Of a stretch of DNA of 64,000 nt, positions 6,647-21,749 are shown in pieces. The stretch's first letter is position 1, and every line of letters begins with the position of its first letter. This stretch comes from Alphaproteobacteria bacterium (lineage in GTDB: Bacteria > Pseudomonadota > Alphaproteobacteria > UBA8366 > Aestuariispiraceae). Both the position numbers and the translations under genes were made by a program. The notes beneath the pieces are model-generated. The model had not been told where the DNA came from, did not search any database, and was given only the letters and a program-made list of their open reading frames with translations. The DNA lies in the NCBI GenBank assembly GCA_024743195.1, contig JANSXE010000011.1, positions 54,335-118,334 on the forward strand, given 5' to 3'.

Positions 6647-6821
6647 GACGACGCCCCTTGCGGATAGGTGCGGGGATAAGGCGCCTCATCCCCTGCAGGC
6701 GGCTTCGGGGGCCCCTTCTTGCCGCAGGCGGCGACGGCCCCGCCGGCCATCAGGGCGATCAGCAGCGCCGCCGCAAGGCGTCGCGCGACGGGCGCGCGCT
6801 GTGAAGTGGGGAGCCGTTCGG

Positions 6822-8401: not shown

Positions 8402-9112
8402 ATGCCGCGCCGCGCCGCCCCGGCGAAGACCGCCCCGGCCATGCTTGCGCCCGCCACGATCACGCCCCCAACGATCGCGCCCGCCACGATCGGGTGGGCC
8501 GCCGGCGGCCGCATCTGCGCAACCCGGCGTCGCCTTCTGGCGGGCCTCGGCGCGGCGCTGGCGGCGGCTGCGGCGGGGCTGCCCGGCCGGCCGGCGCGCG
8601 CGGCGGACTATCCGCCGACGGATGGGGCAATGCAAGGCTTCATCCTGCTGGAATCGCGGCGACCCGCCACGCGGACGCCCTTCTTCGACGTGGCCGGCGC
8701 CGTGCGGCATTTCGGCGACTTCGCGGGCCAAGTGCTGTTGGTGAACTTCTGGGCGACCTGGTGCGCGCCCTGCATCCGCGAGATGCCGGCGCTGGCGCGT
8801 CTGCAGGACAGCCTGGGCGGTCCGGACTTTTCGGTTCTGGCGATCAGTCAGGACCGCGGGGGCGCCGCGGTCGCCGAACCCTTCGTGCGCGAGCGGCTGG
8901 CTCTCCCCGACCTGCCGCTGCTCTACGATCCGAAGCTGGCCTTGGGCCGCAGTATGGGCGTCCGGGGCCTGCCCACCACCTTCGCGATCGACCGGCAGGG
9001 TCGGGTGGTCGGTTACCTGACCGGCCTGGCGGAGTGGGATTCGCCGGACGCCGAACGGCTGATCCGCCACCTCATCGCCGAGGCTGGGCCCGAGGCGATG
9101 CAGGACGCCTGA
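8402..9112 (+). CDS. TlpA-family periplasmic thiol:disulfide oxidoreductase
   Basis: Thioredoxin fold with active site WATWCAPC, a twin-arginine-like signal TRRRLLAGLGAALAAAAA, and a GLPTTF cis-Pro loop. The start was chosen at the first ATG (8402) inside the longer listed ORF, so the exact start is uncertain. Confidence 0.75.
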   Translation: MPRRAAPAKTAPAMLAPATITPPTIAPATIGWAAGGRICATRRRLLAGLGAALAAAAAGLPGRPARAADYPPTDGAMQGFILLESRRPATRTPFFDVAGAVRHFGDFAGQVLLVNFWATWCAPCIREMPALARLQDSLGGPDFSVLAISQDRGGAAVAEPFVRERLALPDLPLLYDPKLALGRSMGVRGLPTTFAIDRQGRVVGYLTGLAEWDSPDAERLIRHLIAEAGPEAMQDA

Positions 9113-9346: not shown

Positions 9347-10423
9347 ATGCAGCGAGCAAGCGGACGAAACGGTCGGCGGAGCCTGGGCCTTGGGGTCTGG
9401 GCGCTGCTTCTGCTCGGCGCGGCCGCCGCCGCCGCGGACCGCGCGGCGGCGCACGGCCAGCCGAATGACGGAATAGTGCTCGAGCGCATCCAGCAGCAGG
9501 GGCTGTTGCGCTGCGGCGTGATCCGCAGCGGCCTCGGCGTGTCCGAGATCGACCCGACCGGCCGATGGACCGGCTTCTTTCCCGACCTGTGCCGCGCGGT
9601 GGCGGCGGCGGTGGTCGGCGATCCGGATGCCGTCGAGTGGGTCGAGGTCAATTACGTGGTGCGCTTCGAGGCCTTGAATTCCGACGCCTTCGACGTGCTG
9701 ATGGCGAACACGACGTGGACCGCGTCGCGCGACACGGAACTCGGCCTCGCCTTCACCCAGCCGGTCTTTTACGACGGACAGGGATTCCTCGCCCATCGCG
9801 ATCTCGGCGCCGTGCGCCTCGACGAGATCGGCGCCGCCAGCGTGTGCGTCAGCCGCAACACGACGACGATCCAGAACCTGGAGGAGTTGATTCGAACGCG
9901 TTACCCGACCCTGGAGGTGAAAGCGTACGACTCCATAGAAGGCGTCTATTCGTCCTTCTTCGCGCGGGAATGCGATATGATGACCCAGGATCGGGTCGCG
10001 CTGGTCTCGCAACGCCTGAACCGAGGGGCCGCGCCGGAGAACTACGTGCTGTTGGAGGACGTCGTCTCGAAGGAGCCGTTGGGACCCGCCGTCCGCACGG
10101 ACGACGAAGATTGGTTCGACATCGTGCAATGGGTCATGTTCGCGCTTATTCTGGCGGAGGAGCATGGGATCACGCGCGCCGAGGTCGAGACCTATGCCGG
10201 GACCGGGCCCCCGGAGCTGCGTCGCCTGCTCGGTCACGCCCCCGGCGTCGGCGCCCTGTTCGGATTGGATGACATGTGGGCGCGCCGCGCGATCGCCGCC
10301 GTCGGGAACTATGGCGAGATTTACGCGCGCAATCTCGGGACGGGCTCGCCACTCGGCGTGGCCCGCGGGCTGAACGCCCTGTGGACCGAAGGGGGGCTGC
10401 TCTACGCCCCGCCGCTGCGGTGA
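9347..10423 (+). CDS. Periplasmic substrate-binding protein, family 3 (AapJ/BztA general amino-acid-binding type)
   Basis: 358 aa with a signal peptide (LGVWALLLLGAAAAAA). The blocks LLRCGV, FDVLMANTTWT, YDGQGFL and a C-terminal GLLYAPPLR resemble AapJ-type binding proteins. No ABC permease or ATPase is adjacent. Confidence 0.7.
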   Translation: MQRASGRNGRRSLGLGVWALLLLGAAAAAADRAAAHGQPNDGIVLERIQQQGLLRCGVIRSGLGVSEIDPTGRWTGFFPDLCRAVAAAVVGDPDAVEWVEVNYVVRFEALNSDAFDVLMANTTWTASRDTELGLAFTQPVFYDGQGFLAHRDLGAVRLDEIGAASVCVSRNTTTIQNLEELIRTRYPTLEVKAYDSIEGVYSSFFARECDMMTQDRVALVSQRLNRGAAPENYVLLEDVVSKEPLGPAVRTDDEDWFDIVQWVMFALILAEEHGITRAEVETYAGTGPPELRRLLGHAPGVGALFGLDDMWARRAIAAVGNYGEIYARNLGTGSPLGVARGLNALWTEGGLLYAPPLR

Positions 10424-10497: not shown

Positions 10498-12525
10498 GTG
10501 CGCTGGTCGCTGATCTCCGTGCGGTTCGTCGCCGCTATCGCACTGCTCGGGCTCGTCGCCTGCGGCGGTCTGCTGGCGGCCTTGCTCGCGTTCCAGGATT
10601 TGCGCGCGGGGTTCGACGAGTTGCGCGGCCGCACGCTGCAGGAGCTGATCGATTCCGGGCGCGTTGCGCAGTATTCGCAAGGCATCGCCTCCACGGCGCC
10701 GCAGCTTGGCGCGGTCGAGACCGACATCGCGCGGCGCACCATCAATCACGAGATCGCCGATCAGTTGCGGCTGCTGGACGACTACCTCGCCTCGCTGGCG
10801 GCCGGCGCTGCGCTCGACGGGACCGACGGGTCCGAGGCTCTGCGCCGCCTGGAGGAGGAGCGGACGGCCTTGGTCGAGAACCTGGCCGCGATCGACCAGA
10901 CGGTCGGCGAACGGCTCGCCGTCGAGACCCGTTTCAAGCGTCATCTGGCCGAAGCCCGCGCTCTCATCGACCGGGCGAGCGCGCTGCATTCGACCGTGAT
11001 CGACCCCACGCTCCTGTTCGGGCCCGATCCGGCCCCGCCGGAGCTGCTGGGCGCGGTCAATCTCTGGAAGGAGATGCTCGACGGCGTGCTGACCGAGGCG
11101 ATCACCTTGCCCGGCGTCGAAAACGCCGCCCTGCTGCGCCGCAACGAGCGGCGCGCCGCCGATCTGTACGGGCAGGCGCGCAACGCCGTCGCGGCGGTCG
11201 ACGCGGCGCCGCCCGAGGTGCGCGATGCGATGCGCGACCTGCTGGGGGCGGCCGGCGCGCTGATCCAAGGGCCGGACAGCATCTTCGGCGTCAAGGCGCG
11301 GCTCAGCGCGCTGCGCCAGACCGAGCAGGGGCTGCTGACGCGCAACAAGATCCTGGCGAACCGCTTCGTCGGCGCCTCGCGCGCGCTGTCGGCCTATCTT
11401 CAGACCCGCACCGCCGACATGAGCGCCCGCTACAGCCGCGCAGCGCAGGACAATTCGCTGATGCTGATTGGCCTCGCGCTGGGCGTGATCGGCGGGGTCG
11501 CGGGCATCTGGCTCTATGCGCGGCGGCGCATTCTGAACCGGCTGACGCGGCTGCGCGGCGCCCTGGAGGCGCAGCGCGGCGGACGGGCCGCCGACATCCC
11601 GACCGATGGGGCCGACGAGATTTCCGAGATCGCGGCGGCCGCGCGGCATTTCGTCGAGGCCGTCGTCGAGCGCGAGCAGCGGCTGCGCCTCGCCAAGGAG
11701 GAGGCGGAACGGCTGGCCGAGGAAGCGGAGGCGGCCAACCGCGCCAAGTCGATCTTCCTCGCCAATATGAGCCACGAGCTGCGCACGCCGCTGAACGCGA
11801 TCATCGGCTTTTCCGACCTGCTGTCGGAAGGGGCGACGCCGGCGAACAAGGTTTCGGAATACGCCGGCGACATCAACGGCAGCGGCCGGCATCTGCTGCT
11901 CCTGATCAACGATCTGCTCGACTACACCAAGATCGAGGCGGGTCAGCGCGAACTCGCCCCCGCGCCCCTCGACGCGCGGCAGGCGATCGAGGATCTGGAG
12001 CGTCTGGTCCAGGTGCAGATGAGCGAGCGGGGGCTGTCGATCGCCTACGACTTCCCGAAGGACGCGCGCGTCCGCGCCGATCCGACCGCTTTCCGCCAAG
12101 TGATCCTGAACCTCTTGAGCAACGCCGCGAAATTCTCCTACGAGGGGCAGGTGATCCGCGTGTCGGCTGCGCGCGAAAACGGGCGTCTTGCGATCTCGGT
12201 CGCCGACCGCGGCATCGGGATCGCGCCGGAAGAAATCGAGCGCGTCATGCAGCCCTTCCACCAGGAAACCGCCAGCTACACCAAGCATGTCGGCGGCACG
12301 GGGCTGGGCCTCGCCATCGTCGACAGCCTCGTGCGCCTGCATGGCGGCGAAACGCGGATCGACAGCGTGAAGAACGAGGGGGCGACGGTCACCGTCTCGT
12401 TCCCGCTGGCGGACGCGCCGGTCTCGCCGGACGCCGAGGTCGCCGCGCCCGAGCCTGGCGAGGAGCCGGCCGGCTCCGCCGCCGCGTCTGCGGCCGCACC
12501 GCGCCGGCGCGCCGCCGGCGGCTGA
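10498..12525 (+). CDS. Membrane sensor histidine kinase (HisKA + HATPase_c), no cognate response regulator adjacent
   Basis: 675 aa. There are two TM segments flanking a ~280-aa predicted periplasmic helical domain, then H-box [19 protein letters not shown]-box [10 protein letters not shown]1 DRGIGI and G2 [10 protein letters not shown]. Confidence 0.85.
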
Positions 12526-18127: not shown

Positions 18128-18697
18128 CTACCGGTTCTGACCCGGGACCCAGAGCACGTCGGCCCCGCCCCGGTCGTTGACGTGCCGGCCCAGGACGAAG
18201 AACAGGTCCGACAACCGGTTCAGATACTTGACCGCATCCGGATTGACCGGCTCGGCCTCGGCCAGGGCGACGACCAGCCGCTCGGCGCGCCGCGTCACGG
18301 TGCGCGCCAGGTGACAATAGGCCGCAGCCGGCGTCCCGCCCGGCAGGATGAAGCTCGTCAACGGCTCCAAATCCGCATTGTAGCGGTCGATCTCGCCCTC
18401 CAGGGCCTCGACCTGCGCGGCGACGATGCGCAGCGCGCCCTCGCCGCGCGCGCCGCCTTCCGGCGTGCAGAGATCGGCGCCCAGGTCGAACAGATCGTTC
18501 TGGACCCGCGCCATCAGGCGGTCGAGCTCCGCGTCCTCGCCCAGATGCAGGCGCACGAGGCCGATCGCGGCGTTGGCCTCGTCGACCGTGCCGTAAGCCT
18601 CGACGCGCAGATCGTGCTTGGCCCGGCGCGAGCCGTCGCCCAGCGACGTTTCGCCGCCGTCGCCGCCGCGGGTGTAGATCTTGGTGAGTGTGACCAT
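18128..18697 (-). CDS. PduO-type ATP:cob(I)alamin adenosyltransferase
   Basis: 189 aa from the ATG at 18697. KIYTRGGDGGETSL at the N-terminus, YGTVDEANA and LNRLSD are typical of the PduO/MMAB family. The listed ORF start (18793) is an over-extension. Confidence 0.88.
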   Translation of the reverse strand: MVTLTKIYTRGGDGGETSLGDGSRRAKHDLRVEAYGTVDEANAAIGLVRLHLGEDAELDRLMARVQNDLFDLGADLCTPEGGARGEGALRIVAAQVEALEGEIDRYNADLEPLTSFILPGGTPAAAYCHLARTVTRRAERLVVALAEAEPVNPDAVKYLNRLSDLFFVLGRHVNDRGGADVLWVPGQNR

Positions 18698-18900
18698 CAG
18701 CCGCCCTGTTTCAGGAGATAGACCGCGAGCACGAACATCATCAGCGCCACGAACTGCATGATCACGCGCGCGCGCATCAGCTTGTTCGCCCATTTCTGAT
18801 TGAACTCGCCCCCGCGCGCCATGGAAAACACGCCGGCGAAGACGATGCCGAGCGTGATCAGCATCGCCGCGACCATCAGGAAGATTGCGAAACCCGTCAT
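18697..18900 (-). CDS. Twin-transmembrane-helix small protein (HIG1 domain family)
   Basis: 67 aa from the ATG at 18900, with two TM helices joined by ARGGEFNQKWANKLMRARV, the characteristic HIG1-type loop. Its stop overlaps the adenosyltransferase start by 1 nt. Confidence 0.75.
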   Translation of the reverse strand: MTGFAIFLMVAAMLITLGIVFAGVFSMARGGEFNQKWANKLMRARVIMQFVALMMFVLAVYLLKQGG

Positions 18901-18939: not shown

Positions 18940-18948
18940 GACCGTTAC
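18940..18948. repeat. Left copy of 9-bp direct repeat GACCGTTAC near the low-GC islet
   Basis: Exact 9-mer, also present at 21048-21056. It lies 32 nt beyond the NTPase stop codon. Confidence 0.6.
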
Positions 18949-18979
18949 CATACACGCCCCCGCCAAGCGGAGCACTTAG

Positions 18980-21028
18980 TCAGGACAACGCCTTGGATAC
19001 AAAACCAATAGCTTCATCTCCGAAACGTCTCTTCATGCAGTCATTGTAACTAACGCCCGCCTTTTCCCCTAGTACTTCTGGATTAAGAGTATACATCTTT
19101 CCGCTTAGACTCAGAATTCCTTCCCGCTTTAGCAATTCCAGAACTGCAGCGCCTGTCCCTTTTGTCATCCGGGAATGCTCTATTTTCGGCTGATACCGTT
19201 TCAATGAGCCTTTGCTATGGGAACGAAAAGCGGTAACAAAACGGCGAAACCTCCTTAGAGCTTCGTTGACCCTTGGGTCATGAACCTCCGTAGGGGTAGT
19301 CGAGAATGATGTCCACGGATACGCCTCACTGCCGCGCCATGAAACAGAAAAATCGCAAGTGCCTCTGATTTTCGGAACTGTACTTATGTGCGCACCTGCG
19401 TAAATTTCAGCTTCAAGATGAACACTGCTTGCATTATTTTCCGGAAAGCTCTCAACAAGAACCTTTCTAGATGTTAATTTAATCTCTTTACACTGTATAT
19501 TAACAGGGGAGACGAAATGAGCTTCACTTCCTGGCCCCACTTCTACAGTAGAGTATGGAACCATGACATCAACGTCCTGTACAACACTGCCTAAACGCAA
19601 TACTCCTGTTTGATCCGAGGATAGAGTCAATGTCCGTGGCAGGTCTTGATCGCGCCTATCTAGGGTTATCTCAACTTCGGATCGAAGACTCTCAATTTCG
19701 TCACCGGCGTTATCTGACAATTCCCCACCATCAACGGTCAAGCTAGCAGAGTCTCCAAGTGAGAGTTTCGCGCGGATAGAAGCGTAGATTGCTCCAACAT
19801 GCTCTGCAGGTATGTGCATTTTGGAGCCAGGCTCATGAACAGGAAGGTAAAACTCGACCAAGAAAGGATTTGCTGAACCTTGCTCAGCCAAAACTCGATC
19901 AGTTGCCAACTCTGAAAAGCGCTTCGATTTCATCGATCTGGCGAATAGCGCAGCAGCAAAAACGGAAGTAGCGGGCTCCTTGCTCCCGTTGAGGAAAGGA
20001 TGCTCATCAACCCATTCTGCCAAGGCATTCGAGTATAACTCAGCGTCTCTCGGACTCATTGGTGGCAGATCGGGATCAGAAAGCCCGAAAATCTTCGAGC
20101 TAACGCGCTCAAGCTGCTCTCCGGGGTGATAAAGCTTATCCTTGAGACTCTCGTCTTCAAATCCAACTGTGCGAATCTTGTTCTTTTCACGATTCAAAAT
20201 ATCATCAACTATTGATTGTATGGTTATTGGTTGCATTCCACTATTGATGTCAGAAATTATCGACTGCGGATTACTCGTTCTCCTTACGTACTCCGCCACA
20301 GCATTTAGCACAGGCGCGTAACCTGCAAATCGATCACCATCATGCCTTGTTTCTGTTCTAAGTTTTCGAACGAGCAGGCCAACAGCCTGACGTTCGGTAT
20401 CGGCGTGGGTATCATCTTCGTTCAATGAGCGAAGTAGTGCATAGGCATAATCAATTGCTTTTGCCTCTGGATAAAAGCCAATCTCAAGAACACTTATTTG
20501 AAGCTTATCTTCAATCAAGAAAATGAATGCGTCTTGAACAGCGCCACTCCTCCCAAACAACACTATCGGGAGCTTTCTGGTGGATGCAATTTGTTTAATA
20601 TCCTCTAAGAATGCCTCAAAGGAATCCTGGGTGACTCGCAAGCGTGCTTCATCTAAACCATCTATCAAGACTGTTGTTTCTTGGGCCGCCCAGTCTTGAT
20701 AAAGCCCAGACTTTGCCAAGCCGCCGCTTACCGAGTTCGCACCAACTGCATCTGCTTCGGCAAGATCAACATAAATCGCGCCTGTCTGAACCGCGATCTG
20801 TCGAGCAAGCGTTGTCTTCCCAACCGCACCGGGTGCAGAAACAAGTATAATGTCTGCGTCTTCAGGATTCTCATTATCCTCGAACTGGTGGTTATTCTCA
20901 AGAGGCGCCTCCGTAAAGCTTGCAACATTTGACGTTAGTGAGGACCAACCTCGTAAATCAATGTTATCGTACCGTTTGATACCGTTGAACCGAGGCACCC
21001 AAAAGTCCGCTATAGTGTAACTTTCCAT
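18980..21028 (-). CDS. STAND/NACHT-like P-loop NTPase with possible C-terminal winged helix; function unknown (candidate defence protein)
   Basis: 682 aa. Walker A is APGAVGKT (nt 20813-20836) and Walker B is TTVLIDGLDE (nt 20648-20677; the hhhhDGxDE form is typical of NACHT). PIVLFGR sits in the sensor-1 position. The C-terminal GTGAAVLELLKREGILSLSGKMYTLNPEVL (nt 19070-19159) looks wHTH-like. A Shine-Dalgarno AAGGA lies 8 nt upstream of the ATG. Confidence 0.8.
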   Translation of the reverse strand: MESYTIADFWVPRFNGIKRYDNIDLRGWSSLTSNVASFTEAPLENNHQFEDNENPEDADIILVSAPGAVGKTTLARQIAVQTGAIYVDLAEADAVGANSVSGGLAKSGLYQDWAAQETTVLIDGLDEARLRVTQDSFEAFLEDIKQIASTRKLPIVLFGRSGAVQDAFIFLIEDKLQISVLEIGFYPEAKAIDYAYALLRSLNEDDTHADTERQAVGLLVRKLRTETRHDGDRFAGYAPVLNAVAEYVRRTSNPQSIISDINSGMQPITIQSIVDDILNREKNKIRTVGFEDESLKDKLYHPGEQLERVSSKIFGLSDPDLPPMSPRDAELYSNALAEWVDEHPFLNGSKEPATSVFAAALFARSMKSKRFSELATDRVLAEQGSANPFLVEFYLPVHEPGSKMHIPAEHVGAIYASIRAKLSLGDSASLTVDGGELSDNAGDEIESLRSEVEITLDRRDQDLPRTLTLSSDQTGVLRLGSVVQDVDVMVPYSTVEVGPGSEAHFVSPVNIQCKEIKLTSRKVLVESFPENNASSVHLEAEIYAGAHISTVPKIRGTCDFSVSWRGSEAYPWTSFSTTPTEVHDPRVNEALRRFRRFVTAFRSHSKGSLKRYQPKIEHSRMTKGTGAAVLELLKREGILSLSGKMYTLNPEVLGEKAGVSYNDCMKRRFGDEAIGFVSKALS

Positions 21029-21047
21029 GTACGATATCCTTTGTCGC

Positions 21048-21056
21048 GACCGTTAC
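21048..21056. repeat. Right copy of 9-bp direct repeat GACCGTTAC
   Basis: Exact match to 18940-18948. It lies in the 5' leader of the NTPase gene, 20 nt upstream of its ATG. Confidence 0.6.
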
Positions 21057-21057
21057 T

Positions 21058-21085
21058 TTTTTAGGGTGCTTCGAATGTAATGCAA
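21058..21085 (-). promoter_or_regulatory. Candidate sigma-70-type promoter of the islet NTPase gene
   Basis: On the minus strand: TTGCAT (21085-21080), a 16-nt spacer, then TAAAAA (21063-21058), about 30 nt upstream of the ATG in AT-rich DNA. This is a pattern match only. Confidence 0.3.
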
Positions 21086-21107
21086 TTTTGTATTGAACAC
21101 TAGCTGC

Positions 21108-21749
21108 TCAGCGCTTGGTCAGCGCCAGCGCCACGCCGGTTCCGATCAGAAGCGTCCCCGTGATCCGCTGCCGGATGCGCGCCAGCGCGGGGTCGACCAT
21201 GTGCCGGCGCACGCGGCCGGCCAGGATCGCATAGCCGCCGTCGAACAGGATCGCGATCGCAACGAAGGCGCCTGCCATCGCAGTCAGCTGCGGCCCGGCC
21301 GCCAGCGTCGGGTCCAGGAACTGCGGGAAGAAGGCGATATAGAAGAGGATCGCCTTCGGGTTGGTGACGCCGATCAGGAAGCCCTGCGCCATCACCGCGC
21401 CGGCGCGGCGCTTGGCCATCGCCCCGCCAGTCGTGGACGCATCGGTCGGCGGCGCGGCCGGCCGGGCGCGCCATTCCCGGATCCCCAGCCAGATCAGATA
21501 GGCCGCGCCCAGATAGCGGACGATATAGAAGAGATCCGCCAACACGGTCATGATGGTGGTGATCCCGACCGCGCCCAGGACGATCAGCACGGTATTGCCG
21601 GCGCTCGCGCCCGCGACCGCCTGCAGGCCGGTGCGCGTCCCGTGCTTCAGGCTGGTCGCGACGACCAGCGCCACCACCGGCCCCGGCATCAGGATGAGCG
21701 CGGCGGACGCCAGACAGAAGGCGATGAACAGGTCCGGGTTGACGAGCAT
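21108..21749 (-). CDS. LysE/RhtB-family amino-acid exporter
   Basis: 213 aa. The N-terminal block LILMPGPVVALVVATSLKHG (the LysE PGP motif) and about 6 TM helices. Confidence 0.8.
   Translation of the reverse strand: MLVNPDLFIAFCLASAALILMPGPVVALVVATSLKHGTRTGLQAVAGASAGNTVLIVLGAVGITTIMTVLADLFYIVRYLGAAYLIWLGIREWRARPAAPPTDASTTGGAMAKRRAGAVMAQGFLIGVTNPKAILFYIAFFPQFLDPTLAAGPQLTAMAGAFVAIAILFDGGYAILAGRVRRHMVDPALARIRQRITGTLLIGTGVALALTKR

What the first reader, a model, noticed from the sequence alone, without database searches (positions are those of the whole stretch)
18949..21107. Low-GC single-gene islet encoding a compact, effector-less STAND/NACHT-like NTPase: candidate undescribed defence/conflict system
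A block of about 2.1 kb is compositionally foreign. Hand counts of 60-nt lines give about 33% GC (19441-19500) and 55% GC (20041-20100), against about 70% in the flanking cobO/HIG1 and lysE genes. The ORF uses A/T-ending codons throughout. The block holds exactly one gene (18980..21028, minus strand, 682 aa), wedged between conserved housekeeping genes. The protein starts with a leader of about 60 aa. It has Walker A APGAVGKT and Walker B TTVLIDGLDE; the hhhhDGxDE form is the NACHT/STAND signature. PIVLFGR sits at the sensor-1 position. A helical stretch of about 200 aa follows, then a beta-rich stretch of about 150 aa, then a C-terminal segment that looks like a winged helix. I see no nuclease, protease, TIR, SIR2, transmembrane or other effector module, and there is no partner gene. 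Solo STAND NTPases in foreign-composition islets are typical of antiphage sensors such as the Avs and bacterial NACHT families. Those are usually much longer and carry an N-terminal effector. I cannot place this compact architecture in any named family by eye.
Basis: partly seen in the sequence, partly recalled or inferred. Interest (0 to 1): 0.85.

Follow-up and report, generated by a model that had tools for sequence, protein, structure and literature searches.

The report
Inserted solo NACHT-like defence-candidate ATPase
One foreign gene, inserted cleanly between two housekeeping genes, encodes a member of a large unnamed family of NLR-like ATPases that travel on mobile elements and sit among anti-phage genes, so it is most likely an uncharacterised one-gene immune sensor.

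Summary
The 682-aa ORF at 18980..21028 (-) has 46.9% GC and GC3 0.42. Its neighbours have GC3 0.82-0.97, and it is the only stretch of the 64-kb window below 60% GC. A relative (L056) has lysE-HIG1-cobO-ETF collinear with the window and only ~50 bp between lysE and HIG1, so this is a real ~2.15-kb insertion. The protein belongs to a family of more than 1,300 clusters, all 675-750 aa and all 'hypothetical', with no Pfam, NCBIfam, PADLOC or PHROG model. The members are scattered across at least seven phyla and almost always have lower GC than their host. The N-terminal ~420 residues form a NACHT-like STAND module. The C-terminal 260 residues (a beta-rich domain and a basic tail) match nothing in the PDB. 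There is no effector domain, no transmembrane segment and no conserved partner gene. Homologues lie in ICEs, at a prophage edge, beside integrases or a tRNA, and next to CBASS, R-M, ABC-3C and Abi genes. One divergent clade is the last gene of a Type II Bub ubiquitin-like operon. The best reading is a stand-alone NLR-like anti-phage/anti-MGE sensor, analogous to bNACHT01. The defence function is inferred, not shown.

The parts
21029..21107 (-). 79-bp AT-rich leader (40.5% GC) between the lysE stop codon and the ATG. It is part of the inserted DNA and presumably carries the gene's own promoter and RBS.
   Evidence: Sequence read, GC. It is absent from the empty site in L056. The sigma-70 consensus scan found no site in it, so promoter activity is inferred only.
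18980..21028 (-). Complete ORF of 682 aa plus stop codon: a NACHT-like STAND ATPase of an unnamed family.
20855..21028 (-). Residues 1-58, an N-terminal extension with conserved FW, GW and F-EAPL motifs. It is probably the pre-P-loop part of the NTPase module and not an effector.
   Evidence: Conservation. In the profile search it aligns with the pre-Walker-A segment of the clamp-loader ATPases Ctf18/RFC1. It is the least conserved region.
20474..20854 (-). Residues 59-185, the nucleotide-binding domain. It contains Walker A (20813-20836, K71), the Walker B / D[GAS]hDE signature (20648-20674, D123-G-L-D126-E127) and the sensor-1 arginine R160 (20549-20566).
   Evidence: Invariant columns, strand order. 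It is the most conserved region.
19769..20473 (-). Residues 186-420, a helical region that aligns with the HD1-WHD-HD2 part of NLR NACHT modules. It holds the family-wide invariant GYAPV (Y237, P239; candidate GxP motif) and EHPF (H343-P344-F345; candidate WHD histidine).
   Evidence: Foldseek alignments of 437-507 columns to NLRP3 NACHT-only crystal structures. Invariants. The assignment of the GxP and His motifs is inference.
19289..19768 (-). Residues 421-580, an acidic loop followed by a beta-rich domain with long strands. It has no structural match and is the putative ligand-sensing domain.
   Evidence: models; no PDB hit with E < 0.6.
18983..19288 (-). Residues 581-682, a basic tail (net charge +9) with the conserved motif RRFRxF..FRSHSKG..KIEHxRMTKGxG and a helix-helix-helix-hairpin (winged-helix-like) element. 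It is a putative nucleic-acid-binding or output module.
   Evidence: Charge, conservation, secondary structure. The only fold matches are non-significant winged-helix hits (PrfA, PadR, MarR, Stn1, Rpa2).
18941..18979 (-). Spacer after the stop codon. Homology to the empty site resumes at 18940, so the right-hand insertion boundary lies within this stretch.
   Evidence: Junction alignment.
21108..21749 (-). lysE, the host gene flanking the insertion on the upstream side.
   Evidence: Pfam LysE hit at 1.5e-35. It is 77% identical to its counterpart in L056.
18697..18900 (-). HIG1-family gene (67 aa), the host gene flanking the insertion on the downstream side.
   Evidence: Pfam HIG_1_N, gene call. 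In L056 it lies ~50 bp after lysE.

Best explanation
The gene is a horizontally acquired, self-contained NLR-like (NACHT-clade STAND) ATPase that most likely acts as a single-gene anti-phage or anti-mobile-element sensor. The proposed mechanism is as follows. The protein rests as an ADP-bound, autoinhibited monomer. The C-terminal module, made of the beta-rich domain and the basic winged-helix-like tail, recognises an invader-derived ligand, which could be a protein or, given the +9 tail, a nucleic acid. Ligand binding allows nucleotide exchange at the Walker A/B site and oligomerisation of the NACHT module. Because there is no enzymatic effector in cis, the output would be either the oligomer itself, binding or sequestering invader DNA or an essential factor and so arresting infection or growth, or a factor recruited in trans. 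What is shown: foreign origin and clean insertion; NACHT-like motifs and fold; absence of an effector, TM segment or partner; a large, conserved and sporadically distributed family; MGE and defence-island contexts. What is inferred: the defence function, ligand sensing by the C-terminus, oligomerisation, and the nature of the output.
For: Insertion: relative L056 has lysE-HIG1-cobO-orf97-ETFb-ETFa collinear with the window and ~50 bp where the window has ~2.15 kb. GC3 is 0.42 against 0.82-0.97 in the neighbours. Family: 667 hits in the word-indexed search and 1,326 cluster representatives in the exhaustive one, 653 of them at E < 1e-30. Lengths are 675-750 aa and the proteins are conserved end to end. 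Spread: 41 genome loci from Alphaproteobacteria, Gammaproteobacteria, Chloroflexota, Planctomycetota, Latescibacterota, Acidobacteriota and Binatia at 45-50% identity. The gene's GC is below that of its flanks in nearly all of them, and in many the low-GC dip is exactly one gene wide. Decayed copies exist. NACHT-like features: D[GAS]hDE, Walker A K71 and sensor-1 R160 are invariant. Foldseek's top hits are NLRP3, NLRC4, NOD2 and NLRP7 at E 3e-6 to 1e-4. Family-wide weak Pfam hits are NPHP3_N 16, nSTAND3 12, AAA_16 8 and NACHT 3 members of 69. Contexts: two ICEs; a prophage edge; beside a tyrosine integrase; 56 bp after a WYL-regulated type III CBASS operon in an integrase-bounded island that also has HipA; a NotI R-M system, a type IIG R-M enzyme, a type I S subunit, a C5 methylase, a Schlafen protein, an AAA_13 ATPase and an ABC-3C component as immediate low-GC neighbours; an Abi gene on an Alistipes plasmid. 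At least 4 of the 41 genome loci have CBASS or R-M genes within ~4 kb. Against the published null of 1.53% this gives binomial P = 0.0035; with the looser count of 10 of 41, P = 5e-10. Precedent: bNACHT01 (clade 14) is an effector-less NACHT with a short non-repeat C-terminal domain. It was found next to CBASS and protects against T4, T5 and T6 in a Walker-A-dependent way (10.1101/2022.07.19.500537).
Against: There is no experimental evidence. No PADLOC or NCBIfam defence model matches beyond the P-loop; PDC-S01 and EruA match only residues 55-150. My count of defence neighbours was made by hand on a biased subset, the multi-gene loci, and not with DefenseFinder. The window copy and many others sit among housekeeping genes, which says nothing about function. 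The C-terminal domain is about as conserved as the rest of the protein (pairwise identity 0.50-0.57, against 0.55 for the helical region). That differs from the fast-diverging SNaCT sensor of bNACHT01. No killing or blocking activity can be read from the sequence. The family is absent from 50,697 phage genomes and present on only 3 of 72,556 plasmids, so 'MGE cargo' applies to ICEs and genomic islands, not to plasmids or phages.
Confidence: 0.6

Rival explanations
1. The gene serves the mobile element and not the host. As ICE, island or prophage cargo it would mediate entry exclusion, element maintenance or addiction, or counter-defence. The chromosomal solo copies would be remnants of such elements.
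For: Homologues lie inside ICE backbones, between TraG/VirD4 and TrbB/TrbL or next to the Toprim/AAA_34 and relaxase modules. Others lie at a prophage edge or inside units bounded by att-like repeats at a tRNA. Truncated copies are common.
Against: The position within the ICE is not conserved, and no element-specific partner is shared by more than 5 of 42 loci. Many copies persist intact as single genes with no element around them. The family is nearly absent from plasmids and absent from phages. Defence genes are themselves typical ICE and prophage cargo, so this context does not discriminate between the two readings.
Confidence: 0.15
2. It is a sensor or switch subunit that needs partner enzymes, as in the clades embedded in Type II Bub and DUF1156-methylase operons. 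Solo copies such as the window's would act through host-encoded partners or be orphaned.
For: Clade B members are the last gene of the operon WYL | Multi_ubiq - DUF6791/ThiF - DUF6527 - ATPase in L032, L040 and plasmids CP084174 and NZ_CP041721, with overlapping reading frames. Clade C member P0226 overlaps its upstream gene by 4 bp and is followed after 3 bp by a DUF1156 methylase. A core-clade member follows a CBASS operon by 56 bp.
Against: Only 2 of 128 Bub-carrying plasmids have the ATPase, and ordinary Type II Bub operons end at bubE. The core clade has no conserved neighbour. The whole 680-aa architecture is kept in the solo copies, which argues for autonomy.
Confidence: 0.12
3. It is a STAND-type transcription factor or DNA-binding switch of the MalT/AfsR/GutR kind, whose output is the basic winged-helix-like C-terminus.
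For: The C-terminal 100 residues have net charge +9 and a helix-helix-helix-hairpin pattern. AfsR appears among the marginal profile hits at E 0.64. STAND regulators with DNA-binding outputs are established (own knowledge; also noted in PMC13581612).
Against: There is no significant HTH or WH profile or fold match. A regulator should stay linked to its regulon, but the neighbours differ in every locus. The gene arrives as an isolated foreign gene in unrelated genomes.
Confidence: 0.08
4. It is a remnant AAA+ replication or transposition ATPase (Orc/Cdc6-, TniB/IstB- or clamp-loader-like) left behind by a decayed element.
For: There are sub-threshold hits to TniB (E 0.06), RFC/Ctf18 (E 0.004-0.006) and a PHROG clamp loader (E 0.0025), all restricted to the P-loop region.
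Against: All of these are below curated cut-offs and cover only residues ~20-160. The D[GAS]hDE signature and the NLR fold hits point to NACHT instead. No transposase, TniA/Q or replication gene is linked to the gene, and it has no terminal repeats. A remnant would not stay full-length and conserved in more than 600 lineages.
Confidence: 0.03

Closest known systems
bNACHT01 / clade 14 bacterial NACHT proteins (Kibby et al., 10.1101/2022.07.19.500537)
   Same: Both are single-gene systems with a NACHT module carrying D[GAS]hDE, no N-terminal effector domain and a short non-repeat C-terminal domain. Both are found beside CBASS and are spread horizontally. This is the best functional analogue.
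   Different: No sequence-level membership was found: PADLOC-DB returned no match beyond the P-loop, though I did not confirm that the library holds a bNACHT01 model. The C-terminus here is about 260 aa with a beta-rich domain and a basic tail, and it is not hypervariable, whereas the SNaCT domain is described as rapidly diversifying. Activity has not been tested.
Avs/AVAST and other defence STANDs (Gao 2020; Lee et al. 2026, PMC13581612)
   Same: Both have a STAND NTPase core, sit in defence islands, show sporadic HGT, and are thought to work by ligand-induced oligomerisation.
   Different: Avs proteins carry an N-terminal nuclease, protease, SIR2 or TIR effector and a large (400 aa or more), mostly TPR-like sensor, and are usually over 1,000 aa. 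This protein is 682 aa with neither. Whether the family is one of the 589 clades in that survey could not be checked, because the supplementary tables are not held.
Eukaryotic NLR NACHT modules (NLRP3, NLRC4, NOD2, NLRP7)
   Same: They are the best structural matches over NBD-HD1-WHD-HD2 (Foldseek E 3e-6 to 1e-4, probability 1.0) and share the same Walker B signature.
   Different: Sequence identity is 8-12% and whole-chain TM scores are 0.30 or less. This protein has no LRR and no PYD or CARD domain, and its C-terminal module is unrelated.
PADLOC candidate system PDC-S01
   Same: It is the only PADLOC model hit repeatedly: 16 of 69 members, best E 4e-5. It is a single-gene candidate defence system.
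   Different: The match covers only the P-loop (protein residues 55-94, profile positions 24-63 of 422). The profile is 422 positions long against 680 aa here, so this is not evidence of membership.
Type II Bub (6E.2/DUF6527) ubiquitination-like operons (10.1101/2024.11.21.623953)
   Same: A divergent clade of this family (30-32% identical to the window protein) is the terminal, translationally coupled gene of WYL-regulated Type II Bub operons in four replicons.
   Different: The window gene has no Bub neighbours. The published Bub operon has three genes (bubA, bubBD, bubE) and the papers describe no ATPase. Most Bub operons lack it.
STAND transcription regulators (MalT, AfsR/SARP)
   Same: Both combine a STAND NTPase with a putative DNA-binding output and lack an enzymatic effector.
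   Different: Those regulators have recognisable LuxR or OmpR-type HTH domains and TPR sensors and are linked to regulons. None of this is seen here.

Membership tests
NACHT clade of STAND NTPases | P-loop with Walker A GxxxxGK[ST] | tested here: met
   A65-PGAVGK71-T72. G70 and K71 are invariant in 69 diverse members.
NACHT clade of STAND NTPases | Walker B followed by the D[GAS]hDE signature, the diagnostic that separates NACHT from other STANDs (Koonin & Aravind 2000; quoted in 10.1101/2022.07.19.500537) | tested here: met
   LLID123-G-L-D126-E127. D123, D126 and E127 are invariant. Position 124 is G in the core clade and A in the consensus of the wider alignment (IDALDEA).
NACHT clade of STAND NTPases | Sensor-1 arginine at the end of strand beta-4 | tested here: met
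   VLFG159-R160. Both residues are invariant, and the strand spans 155-160 in the model.
NACHT clade of STAND NTPases | Helical domain and winged-helix domain after the NBD, with a GxP motif and a conserved WHD histidine contacting the nucleotide | tested here: inconclusive
   Foldseek aligns 437-507 columns to NLRP3 NACHT-only structures. The invariant GY237AP239V and EH343PF motifs sit at plausible spacings. I could not inspect model coordinates or a nucleotide-bound state, so the motif assignment is inference.
NACHT clade of STAND NTPases | Match to the curated profile (Pfam PF05729 NACHT or related STAND models) at the gathering threshold | tested here: not met
   The window protein's best hits are NPHP3_N at 17.8 bits (cut-off 24.8) and nSTAND3 at 12.3 bits (cut-off 27.2). 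NACHT is hit weakly by 3 of 69 members.
NACHT clade of STAND NTPases | Tripartite layout: N-terminal effector, central NACHT, C-terminal repeat or FGS sensor | tested here: not met
   The 58-aa leader matches no domain. The C-terminus is a non-repeat beta-rich domain plus a basic tail. The same exception is documented for clade 14.
bNACHT01-like clade 14 | No effector domain and a short non-repeat C-terminal extension | tested here: met
bNACHT01-like clade 14 | Sequence membership, meaning detectable homology to bNACHT01 models | tested here: not met
   PADLOC-DB returned only PDC-S01 and RtcR P-loop-level hits for the window protein, and no NLR-type model among 69 members at E <= 0.01. I did not verify independently that the library contains a bNACHT01 model. 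A direct alignment with bNACHT01 was not possible because its sequence was not obtainable with these tools.
bNACHT01-like clade 14 | C-terminal domain diversifying faster than the NACHT module | tested here: not met
   Mean pairwise identity in the core clade is 0.69 for the NBD, 0.55 for the helical region, 0.50 for the beta domain and 0.57 for the C-terminal tail. The C-terminus is not an outlier.
bNACHT01-like clade 14 | Walker-A-dependent protection against phage | not testable with these tools
   This needs plaque assays with wild type and K71A.
Avs / AVAST | N-terminal nuclease, protease, SIR2 or TIR effector and a large (400 aa or more) TPR-like sensor | tested here: not met
   No such domains are present. 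About 260 aa follow the NACHT module.
Defence gene (operational, as in PMC13581612) | Enrichment of known defence genes within 5 kb over the 1.53% background | tested here: inconclusive
   A hand count gives at least 4 of 41 loci with CBASS or R-M genes (P = 0.0035), or 10 of 41 with a looser definition (P = 5e-10). DefenseFinder was not run and only 19 of the 41 loci were annotated.
Orc/Cdc6, TniB/IstB or clamp-loader AAA+ ATPases | Significant profile match over the ATPase plus lid or WH region, and linkage to replication or transposition genes | tested here: not met
   Only sub-threshold P-loop hits were found (TniB E 0.06, RFC/Ctf18 E 0.004-0.006). No linked genes were found.
Type II Bub operon component | Encoded directly after bubA-bubBD-bubE | tested here: not met
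   The window gene lies between lysE and HIG1. Only clade B members (L032, L040, CP084174, NZ_CP041721) are Bub-linked.
IS element or integron cassette | Terminal inverted repeats and a target-site duplication, or an attC site | tested here: not met
   No terminal repeats were found in the window. The flanks are not conserved across 30 loci. The flanking 9-mer is not significant (p = 0.13).

The most novel reading that the evidence does not exclude
The family is a new, widespread class of effector-less NLR-like immune proteins in which the novel beta-rich domain and the basic tail together serve as both sensor and output. On this reading it would assemble on invader nucleic acid in an ATP-dependent way. 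The same module would have been recruited as the missing sensor, trigger or target subunit of a sub-lineage of Type II Bub ubiquitin-like operons and of DUF1156-methylase systems. That would link NLR-type sensing to bacterial Ubl conjugation, whose trigger and biological role are still unknown.
Probability: 0.2. Interest if true: 0.8.

Novelty: new variant of a known kind. Interest (0 to 1): 0.55.

Why it matters
If the defence role is confirmed, this family of more than 1,300 clusters would be a compact (about 680 aa) single-gene NLR-like system with no recognisable effector and a C-terminal fold that has no solved relative. That would make it a tractable model for a specific question: how does a NACHT protein stop an infection without a nuclease, NADase or pore? 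The clean insertion with a matching empty site, and the units bounded by tRNA or att repeats that hold only this gene, give concrete examples of how single defence genes move into housekeeping regions. The Bub-linked clade offers a handle on an open problem, namely what Type II Bub ubiquitination-like operons sense or act on. On the cautionary side, hundreds of STAND clades are already predicted to be defence-related, so a specialist would consider this a good candidate but not a surprise.

Tried and rejected
- **Profile searches.** The window protein was scanned against Pfam, PADLOC, NCBIfam, PHROGs and PDB sequences, and 69 diverse members against Pfam and PADLOC. Only sub-threshold P-loop hits came back.
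- **Full-length fold search.** Searches of PDB and BFVD were dominated by the ATPase domain.
- **C-terminal fold search.** I re-modelled residues 421-682 alone to identify the C-terminus. There was no significant match. One bactofilin hit at E 2.6 and several winged-helix hits were rejected as noise.
- **Conserved partner gene.** An all-vs-all comparison of 2,072 flanking ORFs found none.
- **Terminal repeats, target-site duplications or conserved border motifs.** None were found in the window or in general. The GTAACGGTC 9-mer on both sides of the window gene is not significant.
- **Integron-cassette or attC origin.** I considered this and rejected it by reading the junction sequences: no R''/R' boxes and no palindromic attC after the stop codon.
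- **Phage or plasmid carriage.** Essentially negative.
- **Prior description in the literature.** I searched for six family accessions in the literature and in the supplements of Lee et al. 2026 and of the Bub paper. Nothing was found, and the supplements are not held.
- **P0189 fusion.** I asked whether its 465-aa N-terminal extension reveals an effector. It is only a second AAA_16 ATPase.
- **Structured RNA or tRNA in the window.** None.


Full report
**1.
The window contains one ORF at 18980..21028 on the minus strand (682 aa). Its GC is 0.469 against 0.696 for the window. The sliding profile drops from about 0.70 to 0.43-0.51 and rises again exactly at the gene's ends. GC3 is 0.42, against 0.82-0.97 in lysE, cobO, the acyl-CoA dehydrogenase and ETF alpha/beta, and no other 1-kb bin of the 64-kb window is below 60% GC. 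The neighbours are LysE, a HIG1-family protein, a PduO-type cobalamin adenosyltransferase, ETF beta/alpha and an acyl-CoA dehydrogenase. All quoted motifs are present.

**2. It is a true insertion.**
A metagenomic contig (L056) carries a LysE 77% identical to the window's, and its genes run lysE-HIG1-cobO-orf97-ETFb-ETFa in the same order as the window. Its cobO and ETF proteins are 85-88% identical to the window's. In L056, about 50 bp separate the lysE stop codon from the HIG1 start codon. In the window that spacer holds about 2.13-2.17 kb, from 21107 down to somewhere between 18973 and 18941. The insert consists of a 79-bp AT-rich leader, the ORF and a few bases after its stop codon. It has no target-site duplication, no inverted repeats, no integrase and no tRNA. 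How it got there is unknown.

Two other loci show one possible route. In L026 the gene alone lies between an intact tRNA-Arg(CCT) and a 67-nt partial copy of that tRNA, within a series of four such copies. In L029 the gene alone lies between 61-nt direct repeats. In those cases a unit carrying only this gene was integrated site-specifically, or was left behind when an island decayed between att sites.

**3. The family.**
The protein is identical to MCR9221666.1 from an alphaproteobacterial MAG, annotated 'AAA family ATPase'. The word-indexed search gave 667 homologues. The exhaustive profile search gave 1,326 cluster representatives, 653 of them at E < 1e-30. Full-length members are 675-750 aa, none carries a Pfam domain, and almost all are called 'hypothetical'. 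Nothing is closer than 52% identity to the window protein.

There are at least four clades:
- a core clade that includes the window gene (48-58% identity among its members)
- clade B (41-61%)
- clade C (37-45%)
- an Alistipes-type outlier (about 25%)

In one-genome-per-species data the family turns up in 41 species. These span Alphaproteobacteria, Gammaproteobacteria, Chloroflexota, Planctomycetota, Latescibacterota, Acidobacteriota, Binatia and others. That count is a lower bound, because the scan needed exact peptide patterns. In nearly every locus the gene is 5-23 GC points below its flanks, and in many loci the dip is exactly one gene wide. Several copies are truncated or frameshifted. This is the signature of a frequently transferred accessory gene that is often lost.

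**4. What the protein is.**
AlphaFold gives a confident model (pLDDT 85, pTM 0.78). Residues 59-185 form a P-loop alpha/beta domain. Walker A K71, Walker B D123 followed by G-L-D126-E127, and R160 at the end of beta-4 are invariant in 69 diverse members. D[GAS]hDE is the signature Kibby et al. cite as separating NACHT from other STANDs.

Foldseek's best PDB hits for the whole chain are NLRP3, NLRC4, NOD2 and NLRP7 (E 3e-6 to 1e-4). Alignments of 437-507 columns to NACHT-only NLRP3 crystal structures mean the match runs through the helical region to about residue 420. Generic AAA+ proteins follow. Across the family, the only weak Pfam hits that recur are STAND models: NPHP3_N 16, nSTAND3 12, AAA_16 8 and NACHT 3 members of 69. 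None reaches a curated cut-off. Two further family-wide invariant motifs, GY237AP239V and EH343PF, sit where a STAND GxP motif and the winged-helix histidine would be expected. That assignment is inference.

Residues 427-563 are beta-rich with unusually long strands. Residues 581-682 are basic (net +9, while every other segment is acidic). They carry the conserved RRFRxF..FRSHSKG..KIEHxRMTKGxG stretch and a helix-helix-helix-hairpin pattern. Modelled alone (pLDDT 80), this C-terminal half has no PDB match better than E 0.6. The faint hits are mostly winged-helix proteins, and none is significant. There is no transmembrane segment and no nuclease, protease, TIR or SIR2 domain. The 58-residue leader aligns with the pre-P-loop segment of clamp-loader ATPases in a marginal profile hit. 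It is more likely part of the NTPase module than an effector.

**5. Context of homologues.**
No neighbouring gene is conserved: the largest neighbour cluster covers 5 of 42 loci. The kinds of neighbours, however, are consistent.

| Locus or protein | Context |
|---|---|
| P0037 | Inside an ICE type IV secretion region, next to IS elements |
| P0101 | In ICE cargo beside Toprim, AAA_34, ParA and a relaxase |
| P0096 | At a prophage edge |
| P0106 | Against a tyrosine integrase |
| P0064 | Against a transposase fragment |
| P0044 / L003 | 56 bp after a BrxR/WYL-regulated type III CBASS operon, in an integrase-bounded island with HipA |
| L029 | NotI endonuclease and D12 methylase |
| L015 | Type IIG Eco57I/MmeI-like enzyme |
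| L019 | Type I R-M S subunit |
| L036 | C5 cytosine methylase |
| L016 | Schlafen/AlbA_2 protein |
| L011 | AAA_13 ATPase |
| L033 | ABC-3C component |
| Alistipes plasmid | TnpB, KilA-N and an Abi gene |

A census of 148 neighbouring ORFs from the 19 multi-gene loci adds further methylases, AAA_15/AAA_21 ATPases, resolvases, integrases and a relaxase. Counting only CBASS and R-M genes, at least 4 of the 41 genome loci qualify. Against the published 1.53% background this gives P = 0.0035; the looser count of 10 of 41 gives P = 5e-10. This was a hand count on a partly annotated set, so it is indicative, not definitive. The family is almost absent from plasmids (3 of 72,556), absent from sequenced phages (0 of 50,697), and found once in IMG/VR.

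**6. An unexpected linkage.**
Clade B members in L032 (Steroidobacteraceae), L040 (Rhizomicrobium) and the plasmids CP084174 (Acidithiobacillus) and NZ_CP041721 (Acidiphilium) are the last gene of the operon WYL | Multi_ubiq - DUF6791/ThiF - DUF6527 - ATPase, with overlapping reading frames. This is a Type II Bub (6E.2) ubiquitination-like operon: bubA, bubBD and bubE. The papers that define it never mention an ATPase. Only 2 of 128 Bub-carrying plasmids have it, and ordinary Bub operons end at bubE. It is therefore an add-on in one WYL-associated sub-lineage. A clade C member (P0226) sits in a tight operon with a DUF1156 DNA methylase. The same 700-aa architecture is thus used both alone and as a module of larger conflict systems.

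**7. Mechanism.**
The best-supported reading (confidence about 0.6) is a stand-alone NLR-like sensor:
- The protein rests in an ADP-bound, autoinhibited state.
- The beta-rich and basic C-terminal module recognises a ligand.
- Nucleotide exchange follows, and the NACHT module oligomerises.
- The output does not rely on an enzyme in cis. It is either direct binding or sequestration by the oligomer (the basic tail makes nucleic acid a plausible target) or recruitment of a factor in trans.

The closest precedent is bNACHT01 (clade 14). It is effector-less, has a short non-repeat C-terminal domain, was found next to CBASS, and protects against phage in a Walker-A-dependent way. Membership in that clade is not supported: PADLOC returned no model hit beyond the P-loop, and the C-terminus here does not diversify faster than the rest of the protein.

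The rivals, in order of weight, are an element-serving cargo function, a partner-dependent sensor subunit, a STAND-type transcription factor, and a remnant replication or transposition ATPase. All are less well supported, as set out in the rival explanations.

**8. Novelty and verdict.**
The kind of system, a compact effector-less NACHT/STAND protein in defence islands, is known. This family is not covered by any curated model, its C-terminal half has no solved relative, and its recruitment into Bub and DUF1156 operons does not appear in the literature I could search. I could not check whether it is one of the 589 STAND clades of Lee et al. 2026, because the supplements are not held. I rate it a new variant of a known kind, with interest 0.55. 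It is a well-founded and experimentally tractable candidate, but it would not astonish a specialist, given how many STAND clades are already predicted to act in defence.

Noticed in passing
L026:6799-12275: An intact tRNA-Arg(CCT) at 12199-12275 (-) is preceded by a series of partial copies of its 3' end: a 67-nt copy at 9754-9820 and shorter ~20-nt matches at 8448-8467 and 6799-6818 (the last inverted). They delimit mini-islets of 1.3-2.4 kb with one or two genes each, and one islet has an ORF of only 31% GC. This looks like tandem accretion, or decay, of integrative elements that lack their own integrase.
   Followed up: partly
L029:9844-12209: The homologue alone is bracketed by 61-nt direct repeats that are 92% identical, with a perfect 29-nt core. 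A NotI R-M pair lies immediately upstream. The repeat is not a tRNA, and its origin (perhaps the 3' end of a neighbouring gene) was not determined.
   Followed up: partly
L032:6939-12112; L040:6935-11524; L054 (CP084174):4923-10103; NZ_CP041721: A five-gene module, WYL | Multi_ubiq - DUF6791/ThiF - DUF6527 - 700-aa NACHT-like ATPase, occurs in four unrelated hosts. It is a Type II Bub operon with a fourth structural gene that the Bub papers do not describe. The copy in L040 is truncated (532 aa).
   Followed up: partly
L087:2-5249: Clade C member P0226 overlaps its upstream gene by 4 bp and is followed after 3 bp by a DUF1156 plus N6/N4-methylase protein of at least 945 aa. This suggests membership in a methylation-associated multi-gene system. 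One family member also gave a weak PADLOC mad8 hit.
   Followed up: no
P0189 (1143 aa): One representative has a 465-aa N-terminal extension that is itself an AAA_16/NACHT-like ATPase. It is either a tandem-STAND fusion or two adjacent genes merged by the gene caller.
   Followed up: no
L038:8241-8798: Only the first ~170-185 codons of a homologue remain here. The GC content then jumps back to 74-75% within 500 bp. This is a deletion remnant and shows how these islets are lost.
   Followed up: no
L051:6800-9945 and L003:6787-9932: The type III CBASS operon upstream of the homologue (SMODS, bacHORMA_1, Trip13-like AAA) has a DUF6602 protein in the effector position and is preceded by a divergent BrxR/WYL regulator. 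DUF6602 as a CBASS effector was not examined.
   Followed up: no
L090 (NZ_CP140874) and L091 (NZ_CP043309): Ordinary Type II Bub operons on Rhizobium and Acinetobacter plasmids sit next to a large UvrD-helicase-domain gene in both. In Rhizobium there are also a sigma-70 family gene and an SbcCD-like exonuclease/YhaN pair. This may be a conserved neighbourhood.
   Followed up: no
window:17825-18118 (-): A 97-aa ORF with no Pfam hit lies between cobO and ETF-beta. It is conserved in the syntenic relative L056 (53% identity) and was called as a gene in L042, so it is probably a real small protein of unknown function.
   Followed up: no
window:18697-18793: As listed, the HIG1 ORF and the cobO ORF overlap (cobO from an ATG at 18793). 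The gene caller starts cobO later (189 aa) and tblastn to L056 begins at residue 32, so the true cobO start is probably about 30 codons downstream of the longest ORF.
   Followed up: no
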